A DNA stretch of 64,000 nucleotides from an uncultured delta proteobacterium (GCA_963801625.1 CAWDFQ010000010.1:422245-486244); one strand, 5' to 3'. Numbered from the stretch's first letter, positions 14,344-54,119 are shown. Notes: generated by a model from the letters alone, not told the origin. Numbers and translations: made by a program.

Positions 14344-16348
14344 GTGAAGACTCGATGCGCGGTTCTGCTCGCCTCACTCGCCTCGATGCTGCCGTCCGGA
14401 TGCAACGTGGAGATGGAGCACATGGCGCAGCCGACCGCCGCCGATGCCGGCGCCGGCGCGCAGGGGAACACCGCGCCGACGCGCTTCACCGAGGCGGCGA
14501 ACGCCGCCGTCGCGAAGGCGCTGCCGCTCGCCGACCCACAGGACTTCGAGGACGCGCAGCGCGGATTCGTGGCGAGCGATCCAGACTTCGTCGTGAAGAA
14601 CGCCACGGGCGACACGATCTCGGAAGCTCGCGCGTACGCCTTCGTCACGGGCGACGCGCCGTCGAGCGTGAACCCGAGCCTCTGGCGCCAGGCGAAGCTC
14701 AACAGTGTCCACGGTCTCTTCCAGGTGACCGACGGCGTCTACCAGGTGCGCGGCTACGACGTCGCGAACATGAGCTTGATCCGCGGCAGCAGCGGGTGGA
14801 TCGTCGTCGACCCGCTCACCGCGAGCGAAACCGCGGCGGCGGCGCTCGCGCTCGCACGAAAACATCTCGGCGACGCGCCGATCGTCGCGGTGATCTTCAC
14901 GCACAGCCACCTCGACCATTTCGGTGGCATCGCGGGCGTATTGCCGGAGGAGGATGCGCAACGCGGCATCCGCATCATCGCGCCGCGTAGCTTTGTCGAG
15001 GAAGCGACCAGCGAGAACGTGCTCGCGGGTGTCGCGATGGGGCGTCGCGCGAGCTTCATGTACGGGATGCCGCTCGAGCGCTCGCCGCGGGGCCATGTCG
15101 ACACGGGCCTCGGCAAGGCGCCCGTGCGCGGCACCTTCGGAATTCTCGAAGCCCACCGAAGTCGTCGATACGACCGGGCAGGAGCTCACGATCGACGGGG
15201 TCCGCTTCGTGTTCCAGTTCGTCCCGCACTCGGAGGCACCCACCGAGCTGACCTTCTACCTGCCGGAGCACAAGGCCTGGTGTGGCGCCGAGATCGTGTC
15301 GCACACGCTGCACAACCTGTACACGCTGCGTGGCGCCAAGGTGCGCGACGCGCTCGCATGGAGCGGCTACATCGACGAGGCGATCGAGCGCTTCGGCGAT
15401 GCCGAGGTGGTGTTCGCGAGTCACCACTGGCCGGTCACCGGCAACGCGCGCGTACTCGACTATCTGGAGAAGCAGCGCGACCTGTATCGCTTCCTCCACG
15501 ATCAGACGCTGCGCCTCGCGAACGCGGGCCTCGGACCCGCGGAGATCGCGGAGGCGGTCGAGTTGCCATCCACGTTGCGCACGGCGTTCGCAAACCGCGA
15601 CTACTACGGCACGGTGAGCCACAACACGAAGGCGGTGTACCAGGCGTACTTCGGCTGGTATGACGGCAATCCTGCGAACCTGAATCCGCTGCCGCCCGCC
15701 GAAGCGGCCACGCACTACGTCGAGGCAATGGGCGGCGCCGGCGAAGTGCTCCGCAAGGGCCGCGAAGCAGCCGCGCGTGGCGAGTATCGCTGGGCCGCGA
15801 TGCTGCTCAACCAACTCGTGTTCGCCAATCCCGCGAACGACGATGCGCGCGAAGCGCTTGCAGGCGTCTACGACCAGCTCGGCTACCAGGCCGAGTCGGG
15901 TCCCTGGCGCGACGTCTACCTGACAGGCGCGCTGGAACTGCGCCGCGGCGTGCAAGGCGGAGGCCCGAAGATCGCCGCCGCGGCGGGCTTGCTGAGCCAT
16001 CTGCCGGCGGGCGAGTTCTTCGACTCGCTGGCGACCCGGCTCGACGCCGCCAAAGCCGACGGCAAGCAGGTCGCGATCAACTTCATCTTCAGCGACCTCG
16101 GCGAGACGCATGTGGTGACGATCGAGAACGCCGTGCTGCACCACCACCAACGCGACGCCGATCCCGCCGCCGCCGCGACGGTGCGTCTCACGCGCGACTT
16201 CCTGGTGCAGCTGGCGACCGGCCAGGCCGGCCTGCGCGAGATGATCTTCTCGGACGATCTCGCCGTCACGGGCAGCCGCCTCGAACTGCTCTCGTTCTTC
16301 TCGCTCTTCGACAAGGGCGAAGACCGCTTCCCGATCGTGACGCCGTAG
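14344..16348 (+). CDS. alkyl/aryl-sulfatase (metallo-beta-lactamase fold, SdsA1/YjcS-like); one frameshift near 15148
   Basis: GTG start after the ggagggg RBS, with a lipoprotein-like N-terminus. FTHSHLDHFGG metal motif. The C-terminal dimerisation and SCP2-like part lies in ORF 14924..16348. The junction reads GTFGIL / KPTEVVDTTGQ. Confidence 0.8.
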
Positions 16349-33266: not shown

Positions 33267-34157
33267 ATGCCGATCGATCGCGATACACCCAAGATCACGC
33301 TCACCGATCCGGAGGTCCTCGCGCCGTCGGGTGGTGAGACCTGTCTGGTTTCGATCTACGGGCCGAATCTCGGTCGGCGCTGGTCGGTCGACCGCGACGA
33401 AATGATCGTCGGTCGCGAGAACGAGTGCGACGTGATGGCGCCGATCGACACCGTGTCGCGGCGCCACTGCCTGCTGCGCCAACGCGGAGGAGCGGTCTTC
33501 CTCACCGACCTCGGTTCGACCAACGGCACCGCGCTGAACGACGAGGTGCTCCCGCCCCACGAGGAGTTCACGCTGCACTCCGGCGACCGGATCCGCGCCG
33601 GCTCAGCGATCTTCAAGTTCCTGCGCGGCGACGACGTCGAGTCGCTCTATCACGAAGAGATCTACCGCACGATGATCGCGGACGGTCTCACCGGCGCGCA
33701 CAATCGGCGCTTCTTCAGCGAGTTCCTCGAGCGCGAGATGGCCCGCTGCTCGCGCCACGGTCGCCCGCTCTCGCTCGTGCTCTTCGACCTCGATCACTTC
33801 AAACTCGTGAACGACGGCTTCGGTCACCTGAGCGGCGACGAGGTGCTGCGCGAAGTGGCGAAGCTGGTGCGAGAACAAGTGCGCCGCGAGGACTGCTTCG
33901 CGCGATACGGCGGCGAGGAGTTCGCCGTGGTGCTGACCGAAACCAATCTCGAAGCCGCACTCGAGTTTGCCGAGCGACTGCGCGGGCGCGTCGAGGTACA
34001 CGAGTTCAAGGCCGGCAGCGAGTCGATCCCCGTCACGATCTCGGTGGGCGTCGCCGCGATGACCCGGGACACGCGCGATTCCGCCGACTTCCTCGCCGCC
34101 GTCGACACCCACCTCTACGAAGCCAAGTCCGCCGGCCGCAACCGCATCGCCAGCTAA
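33267..34157 (+). CDS. FHA domain + GGDEF diguanylate cyclase
   Basis: FHA region: IVGRENECDVMAPIDTVSRRHCLLRQRGGAVFLTDLGSTNGTALN. GGDEF region: LTGAHNRRFF...FDLDHFKLVNDGFGH...RYGGEEFAVV. Confidence 0.9.
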   Translation: MPIDRDTPKITLTDPEVLAPSGGETCLVSIYGPNLGRRWSVDRDEMIVGRENECDVMAPIDTVSRRHCLLRQRGGAVFLTDLGSTNGTALNDEVLPPHEEFTLHSGDRIRAGSAIFKFLRGDDVESLYHEEIYRTMIADGLTGAHNRRFFSEFLEREMARCSRHGRPLSLVLFDLDHFKLVNDGFGHLSGDEVLREVAKLVREQVRREDCFARYGGEEFAVVLTETNLEAALEFAERLRGRVEVHEFKAGSESIPVTISVGVAAMTRDTRDSADFLAAVDTHLYEAKSAGRNRIAS

Positions 34158-34161
34158 CCCC

Positions 34162-34239
34162 GTTGACTTGGGAACGTTGACTTGGGGACGTTCCTGCTGC
34201 TGTTGACTTAATTGCCAGCAGGAACGTCCCCAAGTCAAC
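34162..34239. repeat. palindromic repeat family A, copy 2 (perfect 24-bp arms)
   Basis: A partial gttgacttgggaac is followed by gttgacttggggacgttcctgctg (34176-34199) and cagcaggaacgtccccaagtcaac (34216-34239). The loop contains gttgactt. It starts 5 nt after the GGDEF stop. Confidence 0.9.
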
Positions 34240-34302
34240 ACGCGTTGACGCGGTTGGCGGGGGCCTAGTGTCGGGCGTGTTCTGTGCCTCGCCGGAGTAG
34301 CC

Positions 34303-35232
34303 ATGCCGCTCGACCCGCAGGCCCGTTTCGTGCTCGACCAACTCGCCGCGCAGGGTGGTCTGGAGCTGCATGAGCTGACGCCCACGGAGGCGCGTCGGGT
34401 GTTCTCGGCGCTGCAACTGCCGATTCCCGGCGAGCCGGTCGCGCACGTCGAGAACCGCAGCATCCCCGGTCCCGCCGGTGCGGTGCCGGTGCGGGTGTAC
34501 CGTGCCGAAGGCGTTGCGACGCCCGCGCCCGGCGTCGTCTACTTCCACGGCGGCGGCTGGGTGGTCGGCGACCTCGAGTCGGAGGACAACTTCTGCCGCG
34601 CGCTTGCGAACCGCACCGACGCCATCGTCGTGTCGGTGGACTACCGGCTCGCGCCCGAGCACCGCTGCCCCGCCGCTGCCGAAGACTGCTACGCCGCGAC
34701 GCGTTGGGTCGCCGACCACGGCGCCGCGATCGGCGTCGACGGCACGCGCATCGCGATTGCGGGCGACAGTGCGGGCGGCAACCTCACAGCGGTCGTTGCG
34801 CTGCTGGCGCGCGATCGCGGCGGGCCGTCGCTGCGCCATCAGGTGCTGATCTACCCGGTCGCGGATCACGACTTCGAGACGCAGTCGTACCGCGACAACG
34901 CCACCGGCTACCTGCTCACGCGCGCGAGCATGCAGTGGTTCTGGAGCCACTACGCCCCGGACGAAGCCCAGCGCCGCGCGGTCCACGCATCGCCGCTGCG
35001 CGCCGAGAAACTCGTCGGGCTCCCGCCCGCGACCGTGATCACCGCCGAGTACGATCCGCTGCGCGACGAAGGCGAAGCCTACGCCGCACGCCTGCGCGAA
35101 GCCGGCGTCGCCACCGTGGCGACGCGCTACGACGGCCAAGTCCACGGCTTCGTCAGCCTCTTCGACGTCTTCGAGCAGGGCAAAGTGGCGACCGAGCAGA
35201 TCGCCGCGGCGCTTCGCGCGGAGCTCGCCTAG
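34303..35232 (+). CDS. alpha/beta-fold esterase/lipase (HSL family)
   Basis: Intact 309-aa ORF with HGGGW oxyanion motif and GDSAGG nucleophile elbow. Confidence 0.9.
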   Translation: MPLDPQARFVLDQLAAQGGLELHELTPTEARRVFSALQLPIPGEPVAHVENRSIPGPAGAVPVRVYRAEGVATPAPGVVYFHGGGWVVGDLESEDNFCRALANRTDAIVVSVDYRLAPEHRCPAAAEDCYAATRWVADHGAAIGVDGTRIAIAGDSAGGNLTAVVALLARDRGGPSLRHQVLIYPVADHDFETQSYRDNATGYLLTRASMQWFWSHYAPDEAQRRAVHASPLRAEKLVGLPPATVITAEYDPLRDEGEAYAARLREAGVATVATRYDGQVHGFVSLFDVFEQGKVATEQIAAALRAELA

Positions 35233-35256
35233 CCTACGGCCAAGGGGTGAACCTTC

Positions 35257-35841
35257 ATGAAGAACGGGCTGTCGATACTCGTAGTCGCACTGAGTGCGGC
35301 GTTGCTGGCATGCGCTTCGACCCAGGAGACGGCGAGTTCCCAACCGCCGCCGAGCGGACTGATCTCGGAGGGCGCCGTCACCGCAACCGCAGTCGTCGAG
35401 AAGATCGACGTCGCGAAGCGCTTGGTCACGCTGCGCAAAGCCGACGGCCAGTTGACGGAGCTGCAGGCCGACGAGTCGGTCAAGAACCTGCCGCAGGTGA
35501 AGAAGGGCGACCGGGTCGTCGTGAAATACTACGAGTCGCTCGCCTACGAGGTGAACAAGCCTGGCGCGGCGACACCCGGCACCGCCGGCGCCGAGCAGGT
35601 CGCGACGGCCGCACCCGGGGCGAAGCCGGGGAAGGTCGCGGCGCGCCAGGTCGAAATCACCACCACGATCGAGGCGATCGACAAGAAGATGTCGATGGTC
35701 ACGCTGAAGGGCGCCGACGGGAAGCTGACCCCCGTGAAGGTGAAAGACCCGAGCAAGCTCGACCGCGTGCGCGTCGGCGACCTCGTGACGATCACCTACT
35801 CGCAGGCGGTCGCGGTGGCGGTGGAACCGGCGCCGAAGTAG
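35257..35841 (+). CDS. lipoprotein with two internal repeats
   Basis: Signal and lipobox ALSAALLAC. The two related halves are VEKIDVAKRLVTLRKADGQLTEL...GDRVVVKY and IEAIDKKMSMVTLKGADGKLTPV...GDLVTITY. Confidence 0.7.
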   Translation: MKNGLSILVVALSAALLACASTQETASSQPPPSGLISEGAVTATAVVEKIDVAKRLVTLRKADGQLTELQADESVKNLPQVKKGDRVVVKYYESLAYEVNKPGAATPGTAGAEQVATAAPGAKPGKVAARQVEITTTIEAIDKKMSMVTLKGADGKLTPVKVKDPSKLDRVRVGDLVTITYSQAVAVAVEPAPK

Positions 35842-35897
35842 CGGCGCTGCTCACGGGTGCCACGAGTTGCGTTCGCCTGCGGCTCGCATCGCACCCT

Positions 35898-38048
35898 CTA
35901 CACTGATCTGCACAAGCTCGCCACCGCGTTCGCGACGAGACGCAGCCCCAGTTCCCCCGGCGTCAGGATCGACTCCGGGTGGAACTGGACGGCGGCGAGC
36001 GCTTCGCTGGCGTGTTCGAGCGCCATCACCACACCGTCGTCACTCTCCGCCGTCACGCGCAGCTCGGCGGGCAGCGTCTCGCGAAGCGCGTAGAGCGAGT
36101 GGTAGCGACCGGCACGGAAGCGCTTCGGCAACCCGTCGAAGAGCGCGCCGCCCCCCACTTCGATCCAGGACGACTTGCCGTGCACCGGGTAGTCGAGCAC
36201 GCCGAGCTTGCCTCCGAAGTGTTCGACCATGGCCTGCAGTCCGAGACACACGCCAAAGACCGGAATGCCGCGCGCGCGCAGCGCCGCGAGCGTTCCCGAG
36301 ACGTCGAAATCGGACGGTCTCCCCGGCCCCGGTGAGAGCACCGCGAGATCGGGTGCGAGCACGTCGAGATCGGCGTGCGGGAAGCCGCTCCGCCACGTTT
36401 CCACACTCGCGCCGGTCTGGCGCAGATAGTTGGCGAGCGTGTGCACGAACGAGTCCTGGTGATCGACGAGCAGGACGCGCTTGCCGAGGCCCACCTTCGT
36501 GAACGACTCGCGCGACGTTTCGGGCACGACACCGTCCGGCCGGCGGATCGCGTCCACCAGCGCCGACGCCTTGACGTGCGTCTCCTCCTCCTCGGCTTCG
36601 GGATCCGAGTCGTAGAGCAGCGTCGCGCCGACGCGAATCTGCGCGATGCCGTCCTGCACGCGGATCGTGCGCAGCGTGAGCCCCGTATTGAGATTGCCGT
36701 CGAAGCCGACGAACCCGACGGCGCCACCGTACCAGGCACGCGACGAGCGTTCGTGGTCCTCGATGAACTGCATCGCCCACGCCTTGGGCGCACCCGTCAC
36801 CGTGACCGCCCACGCGTGGCACAGAAACGCGTCGAGCGAGTCGAAATCGGGGCGCAGCGTTCCCTCGACGTGGTCGACGGTATGGATCAGCCGCGAGTAC
36901 AACTCGATCTGACGGCGACCGATCACGCGCACCGAACCGGGTTCGCAGATGCGCGACTTGTCGTTGCGATCGACGTCGGTGCACATCGTCAGCTCCGACT
37001 CGTCCTTCTCGGAGGTGAGCAGCGCCTTGATCTGCTCGGCGTCCTCGATCGCATTGCTCCCGCGGCGGATCGTTCCCGAGATCGGACAGGTCTCGACGCG
37101 GCGCCCCTCGACGCGCACGAACATCTCGGGCGACGCACCGACCAGGTACTCGCTCTCGCCGAGATTCATCAAGAAGCCATAGGGAGCGGGGTTGCGGCGC
37201 CGCAGGCGACCGAAAACGGTGGCAGGCGAATCGAGCGCCGACTCGAAGAAGGTCTGGCCGGGCACCACTTCGAAGAGATCGCCGCGCCGGAACGACTCCT
37301 TCGCGCCCCGCACGACGCCGGCGTACTCGCCGGGCGCGTGGTCGGTCGCTCGTTCGATCTCGGCGCGACCCGTGTAGGGCGTGGCGATGCCCGTGCGCGG
37401 CAGCCCGTGCGTCGAGGCGCCGTCGCTGCGGAACTCGTAGCGACGGCGCATCGCGAGCTCTCGGCGATGGTCGACGAGCAGCAGCTCGTCGGGCAGATAG
37501 AGCAGCAGATCGCGCTGGCGCGCGGGCCGCTCGAGTCGCAGCCGCAGCGGCTCGAACTGCAGCGCGAGGTCGTAGCCGAAGGCGCCGTAGAGGCCGAGGT
37601 GCGCATCGGCGTCCGATCCGAAGAGTTCCACCAGTGCGCGCAGCACCGAGAACACCGACGGCTGACGACTGCGTTCTTCTTCGGGGAAGTGACCCTCGGA
37701 CTCGCGCACGCTGCAGCGCAGCGACGTCTCGCCCCCCTCGAAGCTCGCGACCGCCGCGAGATCCGCGAGAGCGCGCGCGATCGGCGACAACAGAACGACA
37801 CCGCGTGGATTCAGCGCTTCGATCGCGACGTTGCGCCCGCGCGCCACCAGCACCAGCGCCGGATCGACGAAGCCCATGTCCCAACGGGTGTAGCGACCGG
37901 GGTACTCGTAGCTCGACGCCAGCAGCACGCCGCGATGCGCATCGAGCTGCGCCGTCAGCGCGTCGAGCGCGACCTGACCCGCGACGGGCTCGATGCTGCA
38001 CTCGACGCCGATCCCACCGCGCGTTTCGTAGCTGCGAACTTCATTCAT
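35898..38048 (-). CDS. trpE: anthranilate synthase, fused component I-II (TrpE-TrpG)
   Basis: Intact 716-aa ORF. The chorismate-binding part reads GSPEMFVRVEGRRVETCPISGT...GGAVGFVGFDGNLN. The C-terminal amidotransferase has catalytic GVCLGLQAM. Confidence 0.95.
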   Translation of the reverse strand: MNEVRSYETRGGIGVECSIEPVAGQVALDALTAQLDAHRGVLLASSYEYPGRYTRWDMGFVDPALVLVARGRNVAIEALNPRGVVLLSPIARALADLAAVASFEGGETSLRCSVRESEGHFPEEERSRQPSVFSVLRALVELFGSDADAHLGLYGAFGYDLALQFEPLRLRLERPARQRDLLLYLPDELLLVDHRRELAMRRRYEFRSDGASTHGLPRTGIATPYTGRAEIERATDHAPGEYAGVVRGAKESFRRGDLFEVVPGQTFFESALDSPATVFGRLRRRNPAPYGFLMNLGESEYLVGASPEMFVRVEGRRVETCPISGTIRRGSNAIEDAEQIKALLTSEKDESELTMCTDVDRNDKSRICEPGSVRVIGRRQIELYSRLIHTVDHVEGTLRPDFDSLDAFLCHAWAVTVTGAPKAWAMQFIEDHERSSRAWYGGAVGFVGFDGNLNTGLTLRTIRVQDGIAQIRVGATLLYDSDPEAEEEETHVKASALVDAIRRPDGVVPETSRESFTKVGLGKRVLLVDHQDSFVHTLANYLRQTGASVETWRSGFPHADLDVLAPDLAVLSPGPGRPSDFDVSGTLAALRARGIPVFGVCLGLQAMVEHFGGKLGVLDYPVHGKSSWIEVGGGALFDGLPKRFRAGRYHSLYALRETLPAELRVTAESDDGVVMALEHASEALAAVQFHPESILTPGELGLRLVANAVASLCRSV

Positions 38049-38108
38049 CGGGACTCTCCTGCAACTTCGTCCCGTCGCCCCCGCGATCGGCCTCTCGCAT
38101 CCACAACG

Positions 38109-38134
38109 AAAAAAGCCGCCTCGGAAGAGACGGC
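38109..38134 (-). terminator. Rho-independent attenuator terminator in the trpE(G) leader
   Basis: GCCGUCUC-UUCC-GAGGCGGC followed by UUUUUU, 60 nt upstream of the trpE ATG. Confidence 0.85.
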
Positions 38135-38169
38135 CTTGGAAGACTTCACGCCCAAACCCGGCAGCCGCC

Positions 38170-38265
38170 TCAAGGGAGAGAGCGCCACCACCACGGCGTT
38201 GCGGTTCGACCAGTTCGCGCGTTTCGCACGTTTCGCATCTTTCGCACGTTTTCGCTTCGAATCAT
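38170..38265 (-). CDS. trpL: trp leader peptide (31 codons, three consecutive Trp codons)
   Basis: The product is MIRSENVRKMRNVRNARTGRTATPWWWRSLP*. TGG TGG TGG lies 4 codons before the stop, and the stop overlaps the first GAGGCGGC copy. Confidence 0.8.
   Translation of the reverse strand: MIRSENVRKMRNVRNARTGRTATPWWWRSLP
38213..38258 (-). repeat. five tandem 9-nt units (nTGCGAAAn) inside the leader ORF
   Basis: agcgaaaac gtgcgaaag atgcgaaac gtgcgaaac gcgcgaact encodes SEN-VRK-MRN-VRN-ART. Confidence 0.8.
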
Positions 38266-38300
38266 CGCGATCGGCACCTTCCCACAGATCCCTGGAGGCG

Positions 38301-39341
38301 TCAAGCAGCGGGCCGCAGCTCGGGCTGCGCACGGAGCATGGTTGCGATCCGTGCAATCGCTTCGTCGATGTCGTCCGTCGAGACGTCGAGGTGCGTCACC
38401 GCGCGGAAGCGCCCCGGATCGAGCGGGATCACCCCCACGCCGCATGCATGCGCCGCGCGCGCGAAGCCCATCGTATCCGCCACGCCGAACATCACGATGT
38501 TGGTCTCGGGCCACGGATCGACCGGCAGGCCGAGGTTCTGAAGCCCTTCCGCGAAGCGGCGCGCATTCGCATGATCGTCGGCCAGCCGCGGCACGTGATG
38601 GTCGAGTGCATGGAGCGCGGCAGCCGCAATGATGCCCGCCTGCCGCATCCCGCCGCCGAACCGCTTGCGCAGCCGGCGCGCGTGGCCGATCGCGTCGCGC
38701 GAGCCGCACAGCACCGACCCGACCGGCGCGCCGAGTCCCTTCGAGAAGCAGAACGACAGCGTGTCGAAGTGCGCGGCCCAGAGCTTCGCGTCGATGCCCG
38801 AGGCGACCGCCGCGTTGAACAGGCGCGCACCGTCGAGATGCGCGCGCAGGCCTTTGTCATGCGCGGCCGCGGTGGCGGCGGCGAGCTGCGCGAGCGGAAA
38901 GATGCGACCCCCCGAAGCGTTATGGGTGTTCTCGATGGCGAGCAGCGACGTTGGTGCGAAGTGCACGTTGCTGGCGGGCAGCACGGCGGCGCGCACGTCT
39001 TCTTCGTCGAAGAGCCCGCGTCTGCCGATCGGCGTGATCTGTACGCCCGAGAGCGCGGCCGCTCCGCCCGCTTCGTAGCGGAGGATGTGCGCGCCCTGGC
39101 TCGCGAGCACCGAGTCGCCGTGCCGCGTGTGAAGGGCGATCGCGATCTGGTTCGCCATCGTGCCCGAGGGAACGAAGACCGCGGCCTCTTTGCCGACGCG
39201 CTCGGCCGCCGCCGCTTCGAGGCGGTTCACGGTCGGGTCCTCGCCGAAGACGTCGTCGCCGACCTCGGCGTTCGCCATCGCCTCCCGCATCGCGGGTGTG
39301 GGGCGCGTCACGGTGTCGCTGCGCAGGTCGATCGGTCGCAT
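38301..39341 (-). CDS. ltaE: low-specificity L-threonine aldolase
   Basis: [22 protein letters not shown]...GTMANQIAI...[13 protein letters not shown] (PLP lysine). Intact from the ATG at 39341. Confidence 0.9.
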
Positions 39342-50997: not shown

Positions 50998-51198
50998 ATG
51001 AGTGGAAAGATGGATCAGGCGAAGGGACGGGCGAAGGAAGCTGCGGGCGTGGTGGTGGGCGACAAGGAGCTCGAGCGCGAGGGCAAGCTCCAGCGCGCAG
51101 CCGGTGACATCAAGGAGAAGGCGGGAGAGCTCGCCGACGACGTCAAGAAGGCGACGGAGAAGGTCGTCGACAAGGTGAAGCACGCGATCAAGCGCTGA
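50998..51198 (+). CDS. CsbD family stress protein
   Basis: MSGKMDQAKGRAKEAAGVVVGDKELEREGKLQRAAGDIKEKAGELADDVKK. Confidence 0.8.
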   Translation: MSGKMDQAKGRAKEAAGVVVGDKELEREGKLQRAAGDIKEKAGELADDVKKATEKVVDKVKHAIKR

Positions 51199-51327
51199 TC
51201 GCGCGCTGAGAATCCCGCGCGATATCCACGACTCCCTCGGGCGAGTGCTGACCTACATGCCCAGGGAAATCACCGCCGGAGAGTTCAGCTTCAAGCTGTC
51301 AGCCGGCCAACGAAATAGGAGTGGTTA

Positions 51328-51720
51328 ATGAAGGGCTTCGTGCAAGACATCGAGCGGCTCGCTGTCGAGAATAACGAGTTTCGCCGAGTGCTTTATACGG
51401 CAAAGCACTGCCAACTCGTCGTCATGACACTAAAGCCCAAGGAAGAGATCGGGGCGGAAGTCCACAAGCTCGACCAGTTCTTTCGCGTGGAGGAGGGGAC
51501 CGGTGAGGCGGTTCTCGATGGCGTTCGGACAGCGATCCGAGCGGGCTTCGCGGTAGTTGTCCCGGCTGGGACCAATCACAACATCATCAATACCGGCAAT
51601 CGTCCACTGAAGCTCTATACGCTCTATGCGCCGCCGAATCATCGGGACGGTGTTGTCCACCATACCCGCGACGACGCGGAGGCCGACAACGAACACTTCG
51701 ACGGCAAAACGACGGAATAG
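51328..51720 (+). CDS. cupin domain protein
   Basis: Intact 130-aa ORF. EVHKLDQFFRVEEGTGEAVLDG...VVVPAGTNHNIINTG. Confidence 0.75.
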   Translation: MKGFVQDIERLAVENNEFRRVLYTAKHCQLVVMTLKPKEEIGAEVHKLDQFFRVEEGTGEAVLDGVRTAIRAGFAVVVPAGTNHNIINTGNRPLKLYTLYAPPNHRDGVVHHTRDDAEADNEHFDGKTTE

Positions 51721-51890
51721 AGATTCGAGTGAGCGCCCGGCTCATCTCCGTCGCCGACAGCTTCGAGCGCTTCCGAGGCGGCTCTCGTTCTCCGCGGGAG
51801 TTGGCCGATCATCCCTACACGGACGTATAATGCCCGCTTGAGTCGGCTATCCGCTTTCCGGTGAAAAACGGATCCACAAGGAGTAAGACC

Positions 51891-52382
51891 ATGTCGCACT
51901 TCGATCGTGTTGCCGCCTCTGGAATGCTGCGCTCGACCGTCATTCTATTGGGGGCGGCTACTCTCGCCTCGTGTTCCGCGCACAGCCGGCCGGCAGTGCA
52001 AACATCCTCGAGCAAACCAACCGTAAGCTACGTGTATGGCGACGATCAAGGGCTGCTGGATGCCACGCGAAAAGCCGAAACCTTCTGCGTGCAATACAAC
52101 GCTTGGCCGACCGCCACGGGCTCCGAGGCACGATCTGACGGTCGTCATCTTACCTTTGTCTGTGACCAGCAGCGTACCTCTTCGCCGGCACCCGCCACAG
52201 TGGTAGTGCCGCCCGCTCCGCCGGCTCTCAACTACCCTTATCGGGATGACCGGGGTTTGATTGACGCGGTCAACCAGGCGCAACGGTATTGCATGGGATT
52301 CAATGCGAATGCGCGTTCGACTCGCGTAACCAACAATGCGGATGGCAGCCGAACCGTCTCGTTTGAATGTGAGCGCATGTAA
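51891..52382 (+). CDS. lipoprotein with a duplicated Cys-containing domain
   Basis: Lipobox LGAATLASC. The two related halves are YVYGDDQGLLDATRKAETFCVQYNA...HLTFVCD and YPYRDDRGLIDAVNQAQRYCMGFNA...TVSFECE. Confidence 0.6.
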   Translation: MSHFDRVAASGMLRSTVILLGAATLASCSAHSRPAVQTSSSKPTVSYVYGDDQGLLDATRKAETFCVQYNAWPTATGSEARSDGRHLTFVCDQQRTSSPAPATVVVPPAPPALNYPYRDDRGLIDAVNQAQRYCMGFNANARSTRVTNNADGSRTVSFECERM

Positions 52383-52679
52383 GTATCCATTGGCGTCCAC
52401 CGGCTCTTGTGCGGCGAATTCACCGTCCATCAACACGCGCGCAATCGCGGCTCGCGAGCCGGCGCGAAGTCGTTCGAAAGCCTCCAACGACGGCATTTCG
52501 CTGTGGTGTCGCTGTGATCTCTTGGAAATGCAGCAGAACATGGTCGTGAAGGCAGCGAGGAGGGGTTTGAAGCAGATGAAGCTCGAAGCGACGGCGTCGG
52601 TCGTGAATCGCCTTCGCAACGTGACCTTGTTCTGAATACCGGACAGCGTGCTCTGCTGCTGCGCGTAGCGCGCCGCGCG

Positions 52680-54119
52680 ATGCTCGAGCGCGGCCTCGAG
52701 CCCGATTTTCCGGCGGCCGCGCTCGCCGAGGCGCGTGACCTGTTCGTCCCGACTGCTGCGTCCGGCGCGGACCGGCGCGATCTGCGCAGTCTCCCGTGGT
52801 GCTCGATCGACAACGACGATTCGCGCGATCTCGACCAGCTCAGCGTTGGCGAATCACTCAATGGCGGCGGCGCGAGGATCTTCATCGCGGTGGCGGACGT
52901 GAGCGCCAGCGTCGTGCCCGGCTCGGCTCTCGACCGGCACGCGCACAACAACACCACGTCGGTCTACACGCCGCCGAGGAACTTCCCGATGCTGCCCGAC
53001 CGGTTGAGCACCGATCTCACGTCGCTGGTTCAAGGCGAGGACCGTTTGGCGATGGTGGTCGAGATGGAGCTGGATCCCGCGGGCGCGATGGGTGCGGCGC
53101 GTGTCTACCGGGCCGTGGTGCGCAACCAGGCCAAGCTCGCGTATCCCGGCGTGGGCGCATGGCTCGAGGGGACCGCTGCCATGCCGGCAGCCGTCGCTCC
53201 GGTGCCGGGGTTGGTCGACAATCTTCGGCTTCAGGATCAGGTCGCACAGCGTCTCAGGGCACGCCGACAGGAGGCCGGCGCTCTGGAGCTCGAGACGGTG
53301 GAGGTTCGGGCCCAGTTCGACGGCGACGCGGTGAGCGGGCTCGTGGCGGAGCGACGCAACCGTGCCAGGGAGCTCATCGAGGAATTCATGATCGCCGCCA
53401 ACGGCGGCATCGCCCGCTTCCTCGAAGCGCACGGATTCCCCGTCTTGCGGCGCGTGGTGCGCTCACCGGAGCGCTGGGAGCGGATCGTCGAGATCGCAGT
53501 CTCCCAGGGCGGGCGGCTCCCGCGTGAGCCCGACGCCAGGGCACTGAACGAGTTCCTCCTCGCGCGCCGGGCGGCAGACCCGCTTCAGTTCCCCGATCTC
53601 TCGCTCTCGGTCATCAAGCTGCTCGGCAGGGGCGAATACATGGCGAGCTTCCCCGGCCAGGCGAGCACCGGCCATTTCGGCCTCGCCGTGAGCGAGTACA
53701 CCCACTCGACCGCACCGAACCGACGCTACCCGGACCTCGTCACCCAGCGGCTGCTGCAGGCGGCGCTGGCGGCGCGCGAGGTGCCCTATCCGCGCGATGC
53801 ACTCGACGCGCTGGCGGTCCAATGCACGCTCAAGGAGGACGGCGCGCAGAAGGTCGAGCGGCTGGTTCGCAAGGCCGCGGCAGCGTGTCTCTTGAGCGGG
53901 CGCGTCGGCGAGGAGTTCGATGGCATCGTGACTGGCGCCTCTCCCAAGGGAACGTGGGTGCGCATCTTCGAACCACCCGCCGAAGGCCGCGTCGTGCAGG
54001 GTGAGGCCGGGCTCGACGTCGGGGACCGGGTGCGAGTGAAGCTCATCCACACCGACCTGGAGCGCGGCTTCATCGACTTCGCGCGCGCGGTCCGGCGAGC
54101 AGACGCGGCGAACCGCTAG
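52680..54119 (+). CDS. RNB-domain exoribonuclease (short RNase II/R family)
   Basis: CSIDNDDSRDLDQL, TTSVYTPPRNFPMLP, HFGLAVSEYTHSTAPNRRYPDLVTQR, plus a C-terminal S1-like end. Family-like sequence (ALLLRVARRA) continues upstream of the first ATG with no in-frame ATG, GTG or TTG start. Confidence 0.85.
   Translation: MLERGLEPDFPAAALAEARDLFVPTAASGADRRDLRSLPWCSIDNDDSRDLDQLSVGESLNGGGARIFIAVADVSASVVPGSALDRHAHNNTTSVYTPPRNFPMLPDRLSTDLTSLVQGEDRLAMVVEMELDPAGAMGAARVYRAVVRNQAKLAYPGVGAWLEGTAAMPAAVAPVPGLVDNLRLQDQVAQRLRARRQEAGALELETVEVRAQFDGDAVSGLVAERRNRARELIEEFMIAANGGIARFLEAHGFPVLRRVVRSPERWERIVEIAVSQGGRLPREPDARALNEFLLARRAADPLQFPDLSLSVIKLLGRGEYMASFPGQASTGHFGLAVSEYTHSTAPNRRYPDLVTQRLLQAALAAREVPYPRDALDALAVQCTLKEDGAQKVERLVRKAAAACLLSGRVGEEFDGIVTGASPKGTWVRIFEPPAEGRVVQGEAGLDVGDRVRVKLIHTDLERGFIDFARAVRRADAANR

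What the first reader, a model, noticed from the sequence alone, without database searches (positions are those of the whole stretch)
38049..38270. Ribosome-mediated Trp attenuator upstream of fused trpE(G)
On the minus strand a 31-codon ORF (38265..38170) ends ...ACG CCG TGG TGG TGG CGC TCT CTC CCT TGA, with three consecutive Trp codons. The 8-mer GAGGCGGC occurs twice. The first copy overlaps the leader stop (38164-38171). The second is the 3' arm of a terminator hairpin, GCCGUCUC-UUCC-GAGGCGGC-UUUUUU (38109-38134). Either copy can pair with GCCGUCUC, which gives the antiterminator/terminator choice. The trpE ATG follows 60 nt later. Attenuation of fused trpE(G) through a WWW leader is established in Sinorhizobium meliloti (trpL). 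Finding the same logic in this high-GC, apparently non-rhizobial context is worth noting.
Basis: partly seen in the sequence, partly recalled or inferred. Interest (0 to 1): 0.6.

Follow-up and report, generated by a model that had tools for sequence, protein, structure and literature searches.

The report
Tryptophan attenuator upstream of fused trpE(G)
A short leader gene with three tryptophan codons and a switchable RNA terminator sits in front of the anthranilate synthase gene; it is a distant relative of the well-studied rhizobial tryptophan attenuator, here in a probable myxobacterial genome, so it is a sound but expected kind of control.

Summary
On the minus strand there is a 31-codon ORF (38265..38170) ending WWWRSLP*. 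GAGGCGGC occurs twice, flanking GCCGUCUC. An 11-bp hairpin with U6 lies 60 nt before the ATG of a fused TrpE(G) gene. Three mutually exclusive helices fold as in a classical attenuator: 1:2 at -24.7, 2:3 at -22.0 and 3:4 at about -17 kcal/mol. The leader stop codon lies inside segment 2.

Comparison settles the interpretation. The same four-part motif (UGGUGG(UGG), GGCGGC, GCCGCC, GGCGGC plus a U-rich tail) precedes trpE(G) in 48 of 80 genome loci and 54 of 72 metagenome loci, and is almost absent elsewhere. The loci carry labels from Myxococcota, Binatia, Methylomirabilota, Alphaproteobacteria and Actinomycetota.

The experimentally characterised S. meliloti trpL attenuator (rnTrpL, Rfam RcsR1) shares UGAGGCGGC and GAGGCGGCUUUUUUCGU with the window. 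A covariance model built only from alphaproteobacterial copies hits the window once, at 38205-38105 (E = 2e-4). Rfam's own RcsR1 model misses it.

Verdict: a real attenuator and a new, distant member of a known kind. Tryptophan-dependent read-through is untested. Interest is modest.

The parts
38299..38304 (-). Candidate -35 hexamer TTGACG. It overlaps the TGA stop (38303-38301) of the upstream aldolase-like gene.
   Evidence: Read from the sequence. TTGACG, a 17-nt spacer and GA[AC]G[GT]T are kept in L004 and L005 although the spacer sequences differ. The strict sigma-70 scan does not call it. Inferred, not shown.
38276..38284 (-). Candidate extended -10, TGG-GAAGGT, ending 10 nt before the leader ATG.
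   Evidence: Sequence and conservation. The geometry resembles S. meliloti CTTGCG-17-CTAACA-9-ATG, where the transcript starts at the A of the ATG (PMC6614838). Alternative reading: AGGUG here is a Shine-Dalgarno site for the leader.
38170..38265 (-). Leader ORF (trpL-like), 31 codons plus UGA: MIRSENVRKMRNVRNARTGRTATPWWWRSLP*
   Evidence: Homologous short ORFs ending W(W)W plus 2-4 codons occur in relatives.
38214..38251 (-). In-frame 9-nt tandem repeat (4.2 copies) in the 5' half of the leader ORF.
   Evidence: The copy number differs in L001, L002 and L006. It probably has no function beyond setting the leader length.
38185..38193 (-). Three consecutive Trp codons, UGGUGGUGG (the sensing site).
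   Evidence: TGGTGGTGG is more than 140-fold enriched in the 300 nt upstream of trpE(G) across 80 loci, in 43 loci on the sense strand and 0 on the antisense strand.
38180..38204 (-). Segment 1, the 5' arm of the 1:2 (anti-antiterminator or pause) hairpin. It includes the Trp codons.
   Evidence: pairs 38204-38180 with 38171-38151, -24.7 kcal/mol.
38151..38171 (-). Segment 2. Its core GAGGCGGC (38171-38164) overlaps the leader stop codon. It pairs with either segment 1 or segment 3.
   Evidence: A GGCGGC-like core starts 2-7 nt after the first base of the leader stop codon in most relatives.
38127..38136 (-). Segment 3 (AG-GCCGUCUC). It pairs with segment 2 (antiterminator, 38171-38163/38135-38127, -22.0 kcal/mol) or with segment 4 (terminator).
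   Evidence: The GCCGCC-like core is nearly invariant in 52 relatives.
38109..38122 (-). Segment 4 (GAGGCGGC, 38122-38115) and the U6 tract (38114-38109). Together with segment 3 they form the intrinsic terminator.
   Evidence: 11 pairs, loop of 4, T-run. (-17.1 kcal/mol, z = -4.3). GAGGCGGCUUUUUUCGU is identical in S. meliloti.
38050..38073 (-). Small hairpin GGGAC...GUCCC with the trpE(G) Shine-Dalgarno site GGAGAG (38059-38054) in its loop.
   Evidence: Kept in L001, L002, L004 and L005 but absent in L006. Role unknown.
35898..38048 (-). Regulated gene: fused anthranilate synthase TrpE(G), 716 aa.
   Evidence: TIGR01815 TrpE-clade3 at 1113.6 bits; NF010081 at 1135.7 bits.

Best explanation
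This is a classical ribosome-mediated transcription attenuator that sets anthranilate synthase (trpE(G)) expression according to the supply of charged tRNA-Trp. It belongs to the same RNA lineage as the rhizobial trpL attenuator (rnTrpL, Rfam RcsR1).

Proposed mechanism (inferred):
1. Transcription starts at or just before the leader AUG, and a ribosome translates the 31-codon leader.
2. When Trp is plentiful, the ribosome runs to the UGA at 38172-38170. There it covers segment 2 (38171-38160), or after release segment 2 pairs with segment 1. Segment 3 is then free to pair with segment 4. The GC-rich hairpin plus U6 stops RNA polymerase 60 nt before trpE(G), releasing an RNA of about 155-160 nt.
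3. When Trp is scarce, the ribosome stalls with a UGG codon (38193-38185) in its A site. It then covers segment 1 and reaches only to about 38181-38175. Segment 2 stays free and pairs with segment 3 as soon as that is made (9 bp plus an inner stem, -22 kcal/mol). The terminator cannot form and trpE(G) is transcribed.

Shown here: the sequence elements, their mutual exclusivity in silico, their conservation and the homology to the rhizobial element. Inferred: the transcription start, translation of the leader, the ribosome geometry and the response to Trp.
For: Anatomy:
- Leader ORF with WWW.
- Helices 1:2, 2:3 and 3:4 at -24.7, -22.0 and -17.6 kcal/mol that share segments.
- The stop codon lies inside segment 2.
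- The strongest terminator-like site in the 60 kb scanned.
- The downstream gene is TrpE(G).

Conservation:
- WWW, segment 2, segment 3 and segment 4 plus U are invariant in the six closest relatives, while the N-terminal part of the leader varies.
- TGGTGGTGG occurs in 43 of 80 loci upstream on the sense strand, against 0 on the antisense strand and 0.012 per kb elsewhere.
- The four-part motif occurs in 48 of 80 loci, against 3 hits in about 0.9 Mb elsewhere, and in 54 of 72 metagenome loci.
- All 49 relatives tested fold into the three helices (median -19.1, -21.3 and -20.6 kcal/mol; -13.6 when segment 2 is shuffled).
- Terminator flank pairs covary (AU 25 / GC 20 / GU 6; UA 19 / CG 15 / UG 12).
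- Native 2:3 and 3:4 duplexes are more stable than partner-permuted ones in 102 unique elements; 0 of 300 permutations reach the native value for either.

Homology to the characterised system:
- The S. meliloti locus, annotated 'trpE operon leader peptide TrpLE', reads ...UGGUGGUGGGCUCGCUGAGGCGGCC...GGAGCCGCCC...CGAGGCGGCUUUUUUCGU.
- Model R1, built from 21 alphaproteobacterial copies only, hits the window once: 38205-38105 (-), full length, 23.3 bits, E = 2e-4.
- In S. meliloti the attenuation mechanism, its three stem-loops and a leaderless 110-nt terminated RNA are documented (PMC6614838; PMC7298713).
Against: - There are no experimental data for this organism.
- Single-sequence folding is not decisive. 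The 222-nt region folds no better than shuffles (z = +0.37). The 1:2 hairpin has z = -0.55 and the antiterminator z = -1.8.
- With a ribosome footprint imposed, the terminator and antiterminator states are nearly isoenergetic (-50.1 against -49.9 kcal/mol). The choice must therefore be kinetic.
- The 6-bp cores never vary, so they give no covariation. Ungapped flank positions of the antiterminator show little classical covariation. The permutation test does not correct for relatedness.
- No canonical sigma-70 promoter is called, and the start codon is unproven (in L006 the ATG is ACG, with a GTG one codon upstream).
- Rfam RF02552 (RcsR1) and the NCBIfam models do not recognise the RNA or the peptide.
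Confidence: 0.85

Rival explanations
1. It works as a Trp attenuator, but its resemblance to the rhizobial element is convergent. A run of UGG codons that must pair with segment 2, which must pair with segment 3, which must pair with segment 4, forces GGCGGC/GCCGCC-type triples. Similar sequences could then arise independently in high-GC genomes.
For: Conserved complementary triples in attenuators at large evolutionary distance have been noted before: gGCC-rGCy-GGCC in actinobacterial trp attenuators (PMC1262725). The invariant cores are short and GC-rich. Leader peptides share nothing but the W run.
Against: The element always accompanies the same orthologous gene (TrpE-clade3) at the same distance. 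The leader stop codon begins 2-7 nt before the segment 2 core in most loci. A 17-nt block, GAGGCGGCUUUUUUCGU, and UGAGGCGGC are identical between the window and S. meliloti. A model trained on Alphaproteobacteria finds the other phyla at the expected site and hardly anywhere else.
Confidence: 0.08
2. The main product is a trans-acting small RNA, a small protein, or both, as with rnTrpL/RcsR1 and peTrpL in Sinorhizobium. Control of trpE(G) in cis would be secondary or vestigial.
For: In S. meliloti the terminated attenuator RNA represses trpDC in trans, and the peptide acts in antibiotic-dependent regulation (PMC6614838; PMC7298713). Rfam files the family as an sRNA gene (RF02552). The leader here is unusually long and basic.
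Against: The conserved features are exactly those needed in cis: Trp codons, stop position, the 2/3/4 triple and a U-rich tail directly before trpE(G). The rest of the peptide and its length vary even among close relatives. No target could be examined.
Confidence: 0.05
3. The hairpin plus U6 is simply the terminator of the upstream aldolase-like gene, and the WWW ORF is a chance reading frame in GC-rich DNA.
For: The leader begins only 35 nt after the upstream stop codon, and no independent promoter is called by the strict scan. Spurious ORFs abound in this 69% GC window.
Against: The WWW ORF plus motif recurs upstream of trpE(G) in over 100 loci with unrelated upstream genes. One example is a TonB-dependent receptor gene in the two rhizobial records. 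The motif is essentially absent elsewhere. The window otherwise lacks canonical terminators.
Confidence: 0.02

Closest known systems
Sinorhizobium meliloti trpL attenuator of trpE(G) (terminated RNA rnTrpL = RcsR1 = SmelC587, Rfam RF02552; leader peptide peTrpL/TrpLE)
   Same: - The position, directly upstream of a fused TrpE(G).
- A WWW leader whose UGA stop abuts GGCGGC.
- Three stem-loops: SL1 (1:2), SL2 (antiterminator) and SL3 (terminator plus U6).
- Identical UGAGGCGGC and GAGGCGGCUUUUUUCGU blocks.
- Similar predicted energies: -18.9, -18.2 and -19.6 in S. meliloti against -23.6, -22.0 and -17.1 kcal/mol here.
- A promoter-like hexamer pair ending 9-10 nt before the AUG.
   Different: - The leader has 31 codons rather than 14, with a 9-nt repeat array.
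- There are 4 rather than 2 codons between the last Trp codon and the stop.
- Segment 3 is GCCGUCUC rather than GAGCCGCC.
- The host is a roughly 69% GC, probably myxobacterial genome; TrpE(G) identity is 57%.
- The Rfam RF02552 model does not detect it.
- The trans-acting roles are untested.
E. coli trp operon attenuator (trpL, Rfam RF00513 Trp_leader), the textbook model (from established knowledge)
   Same: The logic is the same: a leader peptide with tandem Trp codons, four segments forming 1:2, 2:3 and 3:4, an intrinsic terminator, and no trans-acting factor beyond the ribosome and charged tRNA.
   Different: There is no sequence relationship and no Rfam hit at E <= 10. It has two rather than three Trp codons. 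It controls a whole trpEDCBA operon and is combined with the TrpR repressor. Here a single fused gene is controlled.
Actinobacterial trp attenuators (Corynebacterium, Streptomyces; Seliverstov et al. 2005, PMC1262725)
   Same: Leader peptides with double or triple UGG, GC-rich terminators with poly-U, and a conserved complementary triple shared by the antiterminator and terminator. Nonomuraea gerenzanensis carries MRNHAQLQWWRRS* plus GGCGGC...GCCGCC...GGCGGC before its TrpE(G).
   Different: The triple described there is gGCC-rGCy-GGCC and lies upstream of multi-gene trp operons. Whether those elements are related to this family was not tested.

Membership tests
Classical ribosome-mediated (leader-peptide) transcription attenuator | A short leader ORF with tandem codons for the regulating amino acid, upstream of a biosynthetic gene for that amino acid. 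| tested here: met
   31-codon ORF with WWW. The downstream gene is TrpE(G).
Classical ribosome-mediated (leader-peptide) transcription attenuator | An intrinsic terminator (GC-rich hairpin plus U-run) between the leader and the structural gene. | tested here: met
   11-bp stem, 4-nt loop and U6; -17.1 kcal/mol, z = -4.3.
Classical ribosome-mediated (leader-peptide) transcription attenuator | An antiterminator that shares a strand with the terminator, and an upstream helix (1:2) that shares a strand with the antiterminator and includes the regulatory codons. | tested here: met
   Pair lists. The same three helices are predicted in 49 of 49 relatives. This is in silico only.
Classical ribosome-mediated (leader-peptide) transcription attenuator | A leader stop codon placed so that a terminating ribosome masks segment 2, while a ribosome stalled at the regulatory codons does not. 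| tested here: met
   The UGA at 38172-38170 lies inside segment 2. The last UGG is 12 nt upstream. Footprint reach is taken from general knowledge of ribosome footprints (about 12 nt 3' of the A-site codon start). The spacing is kept in relatives.
Classical ribosome-mediated (leader-peptide) transcription attenuator | Read-through that depends on amino acid (charged tRNA) supply in vivo or in vitro. | not testable with these tools
   Needs reporter fusions, Term-seq or in vitro transcription-translation.
Rhizobial trpL attenuator / rnTrpL (RcsR1) RNA family | Sequence and structure similarity to the alphaproteobacterial elements. | tested here: met
   Model R1, built from 21 alphaproteobacterial copies including S. 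meliloti and R. leguminosarum, gives a single full-length hit at 38205-38105 (-), 23.3 bits, E = 2e-4. Shared blocks with S. meliloti.
Rhizobial trpL attenuator / rnTrpL (RcsR1) RNA family | A match to the curated Rfam model RF02552 at its gathering score (60 bits). | tested here: not met
   No RF02552 hit in 37500-38800 even at E <= 10. The model scores 98 and 110 bits on S. meliloti and R. leguminosarum, but only 22 bits on L011 and nothing on the attenuator strand of the Stellaceae-type loci. The curated model is narrow.
Rhizobial trpL attenuator / rnTrpL (RcsR1) RNA family | A location immediately upstream of a fused trpE(G) of the TrpE-clade3 type. | tested here: met
Rhizobial trpL attenuator / rnTrpL (RcsR1) RNA family | A leaderless transcript starting at the A of the leader AUG. 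| tested here: inconclusive
   TTGACG-17-GAAGGT ends 10 nt before the AUG. The figure is 7 nt in L004 and L005 and 9 nt in S. meliloti, where the start is known (PMC6614838). An AGGUG Shine-Dalgarno reading is equally possible. There are no transcript data.
Rhizobial trpL attenuator / rnTrpL (RcsR1) RNA family | Trans-acting functions: sRNA repression of trpDC, and peTrpL action in antibiotic-dependent regulation. | not testable with these tools
   No targets are in the window. This is function, not sequence.
TrpLE leader peptide (protein family used in NCBI annotation) | A peptide match to a curated model. | tested here: not met
   No NCBIfam hit at E <= 10 for the 31-aa or 22-aa version. Known peTrpL peptides share only the W run (PMC7298713), so this says little.
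Other Trp-sensing leaders (enterobacterial Trp_leader RF00513, T-box, TRAP sites) | A match to the Rfam models. | tested here: not met
   No such family appears among the matches at E <= 10.

The most novel reading that the evidence does not exclude
The trpL attenuator plus trpE(G) may be one self-contained gene-and-regulator cassette. It would have been kept or passed around across at least five phyla because it needs no dedicated regulator protein. In this lineage the released RNA of about 155-160 nt and its basic 31-aa peptide, whose 9-nt repeat array expands and contracts, might also act in trans, as rnTrpL and peTrpL do in Sinorhizobium.
Probability: 0.15. Interest if true: 0.5.

Novelty: new member of a known kind. 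Interest (0 to 1): 0.3.

Why it matters
1. Annotation. The leader ORF and the attenuator are recognised by neither the Rfam nor the NCBIfam models tried here, so the element is likely to go unannotated in genomes like this one. The curated family (RF02552) covers only Rhizobiaceae-type copies. The same element precedes trpE(G) in about two thirds of 152 loci sampled from several phyla. A broader model would annotate many of these.
2. Evolution. It is a clear case of a factor-independent regulatory RNA staying attached to its gene over very large distances. It needs only the ribosome, tRNA-Trp and RNA polymerase.
3. Practice. In myxobacteria-like producers of tryptophan- or anthranilate-derived metabolites, deleting 38109-38136 or recoding the UGG codons is the obvious way to change anthranilate synthase expression.

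None of this changes the understanding of attenuation.

Tried and rejected
- Rfam scans of the region at E <= 10, and of the window plus seven loci at gathering scores, gave only chance hits (miRNA and snoRNA families).
- Whole-region MFE folding was uninformative (z = +0.37).
- Equilibrium folding with imposed ribosome footprints did not cleanly switch structures. I therefore relied on segment-wise folds and on comparison.
- My first automatic terminator finder was too strict and missed many relatives. I replaced it with anchoring on the conserved cores.
- The other three TGGTGGTGG sites in the window are not leaders. The one at 51050 lies out of frame inside a CsbD-like ORF. Those at 16141 and 20997 lie in long open frames, without the motif.
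- The look-up of encoding contigs and the listing of cluster members did not name the source organism.
- Merino 2008 and Xie 2003 are not held in the library. A literature search for myxobacterial Trp attenuation found nothing.
- The supplements of PMC6614838 are not held. The S. meliloti sequence came instead from a chromosome-sized S. meliloti record in PLSDB, whose description line calls it plasmid pSymB.
- The Legionella plasmid copy and a Streptomyces plasmid copy of trpE(G) have no leader.
- The strict sigma-70 scan finds no promoter.

Full report
**1. What is in the sequence**

Read on the minus strand, the interval holds the following, in order.

- The stop codon of an aldolase-like gene (NCBIfam GntG-family/low-specificity threonine aldolase) lies at 38303-38301.
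- An ATG at 38265 opens a 31-codon ORF, MIRSENVRKMRNVRNARTGRTATPWWWRSLP*, with its UGA at 38172-38170.
- GAGGCGGC lies at 38171-38164.
- A 28-nt spacer follows, then GCCGUCUC (38134-38127), UUCC, GAGGCGGC (38122-38115) and U6 (38114-38109).
- Sixty nucleotides further on, preceded by GGAGAG, is the ATG (38048) of a 716-aa ORF.
- That ORF is a fused anthranilate synthase: TIGR01815 TrpE-clade3 at 1114 bits and NF010081 at 1136 bits.

**2. Is it more than chance?**

- The 8-mer alone is not unusual in this window of 69.3% GC: 15 copies against 13.8 expected.
- TGGTGGTGG is rare: 4 copies against 0.12 expected. The other three copies are not leaders.
- A T6 run occurs only twice in 64 kb.
- The 11-bp hairpin plus U6 is by far the best terminator-like site in the 60 kb scanned. 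Such sites are otherwise about as frequent as in shuffled sequence: 24 found against about 26 expected.
- The terminator folds better than all 200 shuffles (z = -4.3).

**3. Alternative structures**

Segment-wise folding gives three helices.

| Helix | Pairing | Energy (kcal/mol) |
|---|---|---|
| 1:2 | 38204-38180 with 38171-38151; Trp codons in the 5' arm, stop codon at the base of the 3' arm | -24.7 |
| 2:3, antiterminator | 38171-38163 with 38135-38127, plus an inner stem | -22.0 |
| 3:4, terminator | 38136-38127 with 38122-38113 | -17.1 to -17.6 |

- Each neighbouring pair of helices shares a strand, so they exclude one another.
- Using the usual reach of a ribosome (about 12 nt beyond the first base of the A-site codon; general knowledge), a ribosome paused on UGG covers to about 38181-38175. 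Segment 2 is then left free.
- A ribosome at the UGA covers to about 38160 and so buries the 5' arm of the antiterminator.
- Equilibrium folding with imposed footprints leaves the two states nearly isoenergetic. The whole region, the 1:2 hairpin and the antiterminator are not significantly more stable than shuffles.
- On one sequence alone, then, the model is plausible but not proven. The choice would be kinetic, as in the classical model.

**4. Relatives**

- A scan of one genome per species with the TrpE(G) protein returned 80 loci.
  - The nearest, at 95, 90, 89, 80, 77 and 76% identity, are MAGs. Four are labelled Deltaproteobacteria or Myxococcota; two carry an implausible 'uncultured Spirochaetales' label.
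  - The next nearest carry labels of Methylomirabilota/Rokubacteria, Binatia, Sorangium, and Stellaceae and other Alphaproteobacteria.
  - Several other record labels are also implausible, so phylum names rest on the record titles only.
- In the six closest loci, UGGUGG(UGG), GAGGCGGC, GGCCG(U/C)CUC, CCGAGGCGGC plus a U-rich tail (U-run interrupted in L004), and the GAGAGUCCCG(A/U)UG start region are invariant or nearly so. The 5' half of the leader ORF differs in length and sequence.
- Across all 80 loci, a short ORF with WWW or WW lies 110-250 nt before trpE(G) in about 55.
- TGGTGGTGG is present in the 300 nt upstream in 43 loci on the sense strand and 0 on the antisense strand. The background is 0.012 per kb.
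- All carriers share one architecture: Trp codons, 2-4 further codons, a stop codon beginning 2-7 nt before a GGCGGC-like core, 18-49 nt, a GCCGCC-like core, a short loop, GGCGGC, and a U-rich tail.
- A regular expression for this four-part motif hits 48 of 80 loci at the expected place and only 3 places in about 0.9 Mb of other sequence. It hits the window once, at 38193-38115.
- An independent metagenome sample gave 54 of 72 usable loci.
- Loci without the element include all Sorangium, several Acidimicrobiales/Microthrix, Legionella, and a Streptomyces plasmid copy.

**5. Support for the structures from comparison**

- All 49 relatives tested fold into the three helices. Median energies are -19.1 (1:2), -21.3 (2:3) and -20.6 (3:4) kcal/mol. 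The 2:3 value drops to -13.6 when segment 2 is shuffled.
- RNAalifold predicts the terminator in all 50 aligned sequences, with compensatory changes in four of its pairs.
- Anchored counts show the pairs flanking the core covarying: AU 25 / GC 20 / GU 6 and UA 19 / CG 15 / UG 12. These are 98% and 90% paired, above every shuffle.
- The 6-bp cores never vary and so say nothing about structure.
- Ungapped flank positions of the antiterminator show little classical covariation. Different clades extend that helix in different directions.
- A native-versus-chimera test captures this. In 102 unique elements, the 2:3 duplex averages -22.35 kcal/mol against -21.07 ± 0.26 for permuted partners. The 3:4 duplex averages -26.02 against -23.16 ± 0.37. 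In both cases 0 of 300 permutations reach the native value.
- That test does not correct for shared ancestry.

**6. Comparison with the known system**

- A chromosome-sized S. meliloti record in the plasmid collection (its description line calls it pSymB) annotates a 'trpE operon leader peptide TrpLE' 115 nt before trpE(G).
- Its sequence is AUGGCAAAC...AUCUGGUGGUGGGCUCGCUGAGGCGGCCUUGACC...GGAGCCGCCCGGAGAUUUCGAGGCGGCUUUUUUCGU. R. leguminosarum is alike.
- The window shares UGAGGCGGC (the stop codon fused to segment 2) and the 17-mer GAGGCGGCUUUUUUCGU.
- The three helices have similar predicted energies in the two species.
- In S. meliloti this attenuator has been studied experimentally. It has mutually exclusive SL1, SL2 and SL3, a leaderless 110-nt terminated RNA (rnTrpL, earlier called RcsR1 or SmelC587), and the peptide [14 protein letters not shown] (PMC6614838; PMC7298713; PMC4962803).
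- Rfam holds it as RF02552 RcsR1. That model scores 98 and 110 bits on the two rhizobial loci. It does not hit the window at E <= 10. It finds no attenuator-strand match in the Stellaceae-type loci. On L011 it scores only 22 bits.
- As an independent membership test, I built a covariance model from 21 alphaproteobacterial copies only.
  - It finds one significant, full-length match in the 64-kb window: 38205-38105 (-), 23.3 bits, E = 2e-4.
  - It also finds the elements of some twenty non-alphaproteobacterial loci at E < 0.01 (a few more at weaker E-values), including Nonomuraea gerenzanensis (MRNHAQLQWWRRS*), all at the expected site.
- The window element is therefore best filed as a distant member of the trpL/RcsR1 family that the curated model is too narrow to see.
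- Convergence driven by the UGG run is a fair caveat, because conserved complementary triples in attenuators are known (PMC1262725). It fits poorly with the constant gene partner, the constant stop-to-core spacing and the identical 17-mer.

**7. Transcription and translation start (inferred)**

- TTGACG (38304-38299), a 17-nt spacer, TGG-GAAGGT (38284-38276) and then 10 nt lead to the AUG.
- The same hexamers and spacing are kept in L004 and L005, where only 7 nt separate the -10 from the AUG and the spacer sequences differ.
- S. meliloti has CTTGCG-17-CTAACA-9-AUG, and its transcript starts at the A of the AUG.
- A leaderless or nearly leaderless leader mRNA is therefore plausible.
- The alternative is that AGGUG serves as a Shine-Dalgarno site on a transcript coming from the upstream gene. 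L006 has ACG in place of ATG and a GTG one codon upstream, which fits this reading.
- The strict sigma-70 scan calls nothing.

**8. Verdict**

- The element is a Trp-sensing, ribosome-mediated transcription attenuator of trpE(G), related to the rhizobial trpL/rnTrpL element, in a probably myxobacterial genome.
- It is a new, distant member of a known kind.
- The useful by-product is that this family is far wider than its Rfam entry.
- The regulation itself remains to be shown experimentally.

Noticed in passing
L081:525-620, L082:522-617; window 38105-38205: Rfam RF02552 (RcsR1 sRNA) is the rhizobial trpL attenuator. The model is so narrow that it misses the window, the Stellaceae-type alphaproteobacterial copies and those of other phyla. 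It is also typed as an sRNA gene rather than a cis-regulatory leader.
   Followed up: yes
window 38214-38251 (-): An in-frame 9-nt tandem repeat (4.2 copies, unit ACGUGCGAA) lies inside the leader ORF. The copy number differs between the window, L001, L002 and L006, so leader length changes by repeat slippage.
   Followed up: partly
window 38050-38073 (-): A small hairpin GGGAC...GUCCC holds the trpE(G) Shine-Dalgarno site GGAGAG in its loop. It is conserved in L001, L002, L004 and L005 but absent in L006. It might modulate translation or stabilise the mRNA.
   Followed up: partly
L021, L023, L035, L042 (about 20-60 nt after the attenuator terminator); similar in L022, L077, L013, L015: Binatia-type loci carry a second hairpin plus U-run (for example AGGCCGCCGCCUCUCCCAAGGUUGCGGCCUUUUU) after the first terminator. 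This could be a tandem terminator or an extra regulatory element.
   Followed up: no
L019, L020, L024, L026-L028, L031, L033, L037 (Sorangium): The TrpE(G) match spans 3.0-3.1 kb instead of 2.1 kb, implying an insertion of about 1 kb in the gene. No WW(W) leader is present upstream.
   Followed up: no
L062, L064, L067; L047, L053: Other leader types precede trpE(G). One is ...TWWPFYGTRRHVMRSGA*, with a different terminator (GGCCUCUACCC...GGUAGCGGCCUUUUUU). Another is ...GWWRWS*, with a different helix set.
   Followed up: no
window 1-60000: Apart from the attenuator, the window has essentially no canonical intrinsic terminators. Terminator-like sites number 24 against about 26 expected from shuffles. 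A T6 run occurs only at 38109 and 28705. No terminator follows trpE(G) itself (34000-36100).
   Followed up: partly
window 51000-53000: A lower-GC patch (0.60-0.625 against a mean of 0.69) holds a CsbD-like small ORF (50998-51198) and a 130-aa ORF (51328-51720). It may be acquired DNA.
   Followed up: no
window 34160-35897: The 1.7 kb downstream of trpE(G) has only overlapping ORFs with no Pfam match on either strand. Whether trpE(G) is monocistronic could not be decided.
   Followed up: partly
L084:560-680 (Nonomuraea gerenzanensis): An isolate genome of Actinomycetota carries the same element (MRNHAQLQWWRRS*, then GGCGGC...GGCCGCC...AGGCGGCCUUUCU) before its clade-3 TrpE(G).
   Followed up: partly
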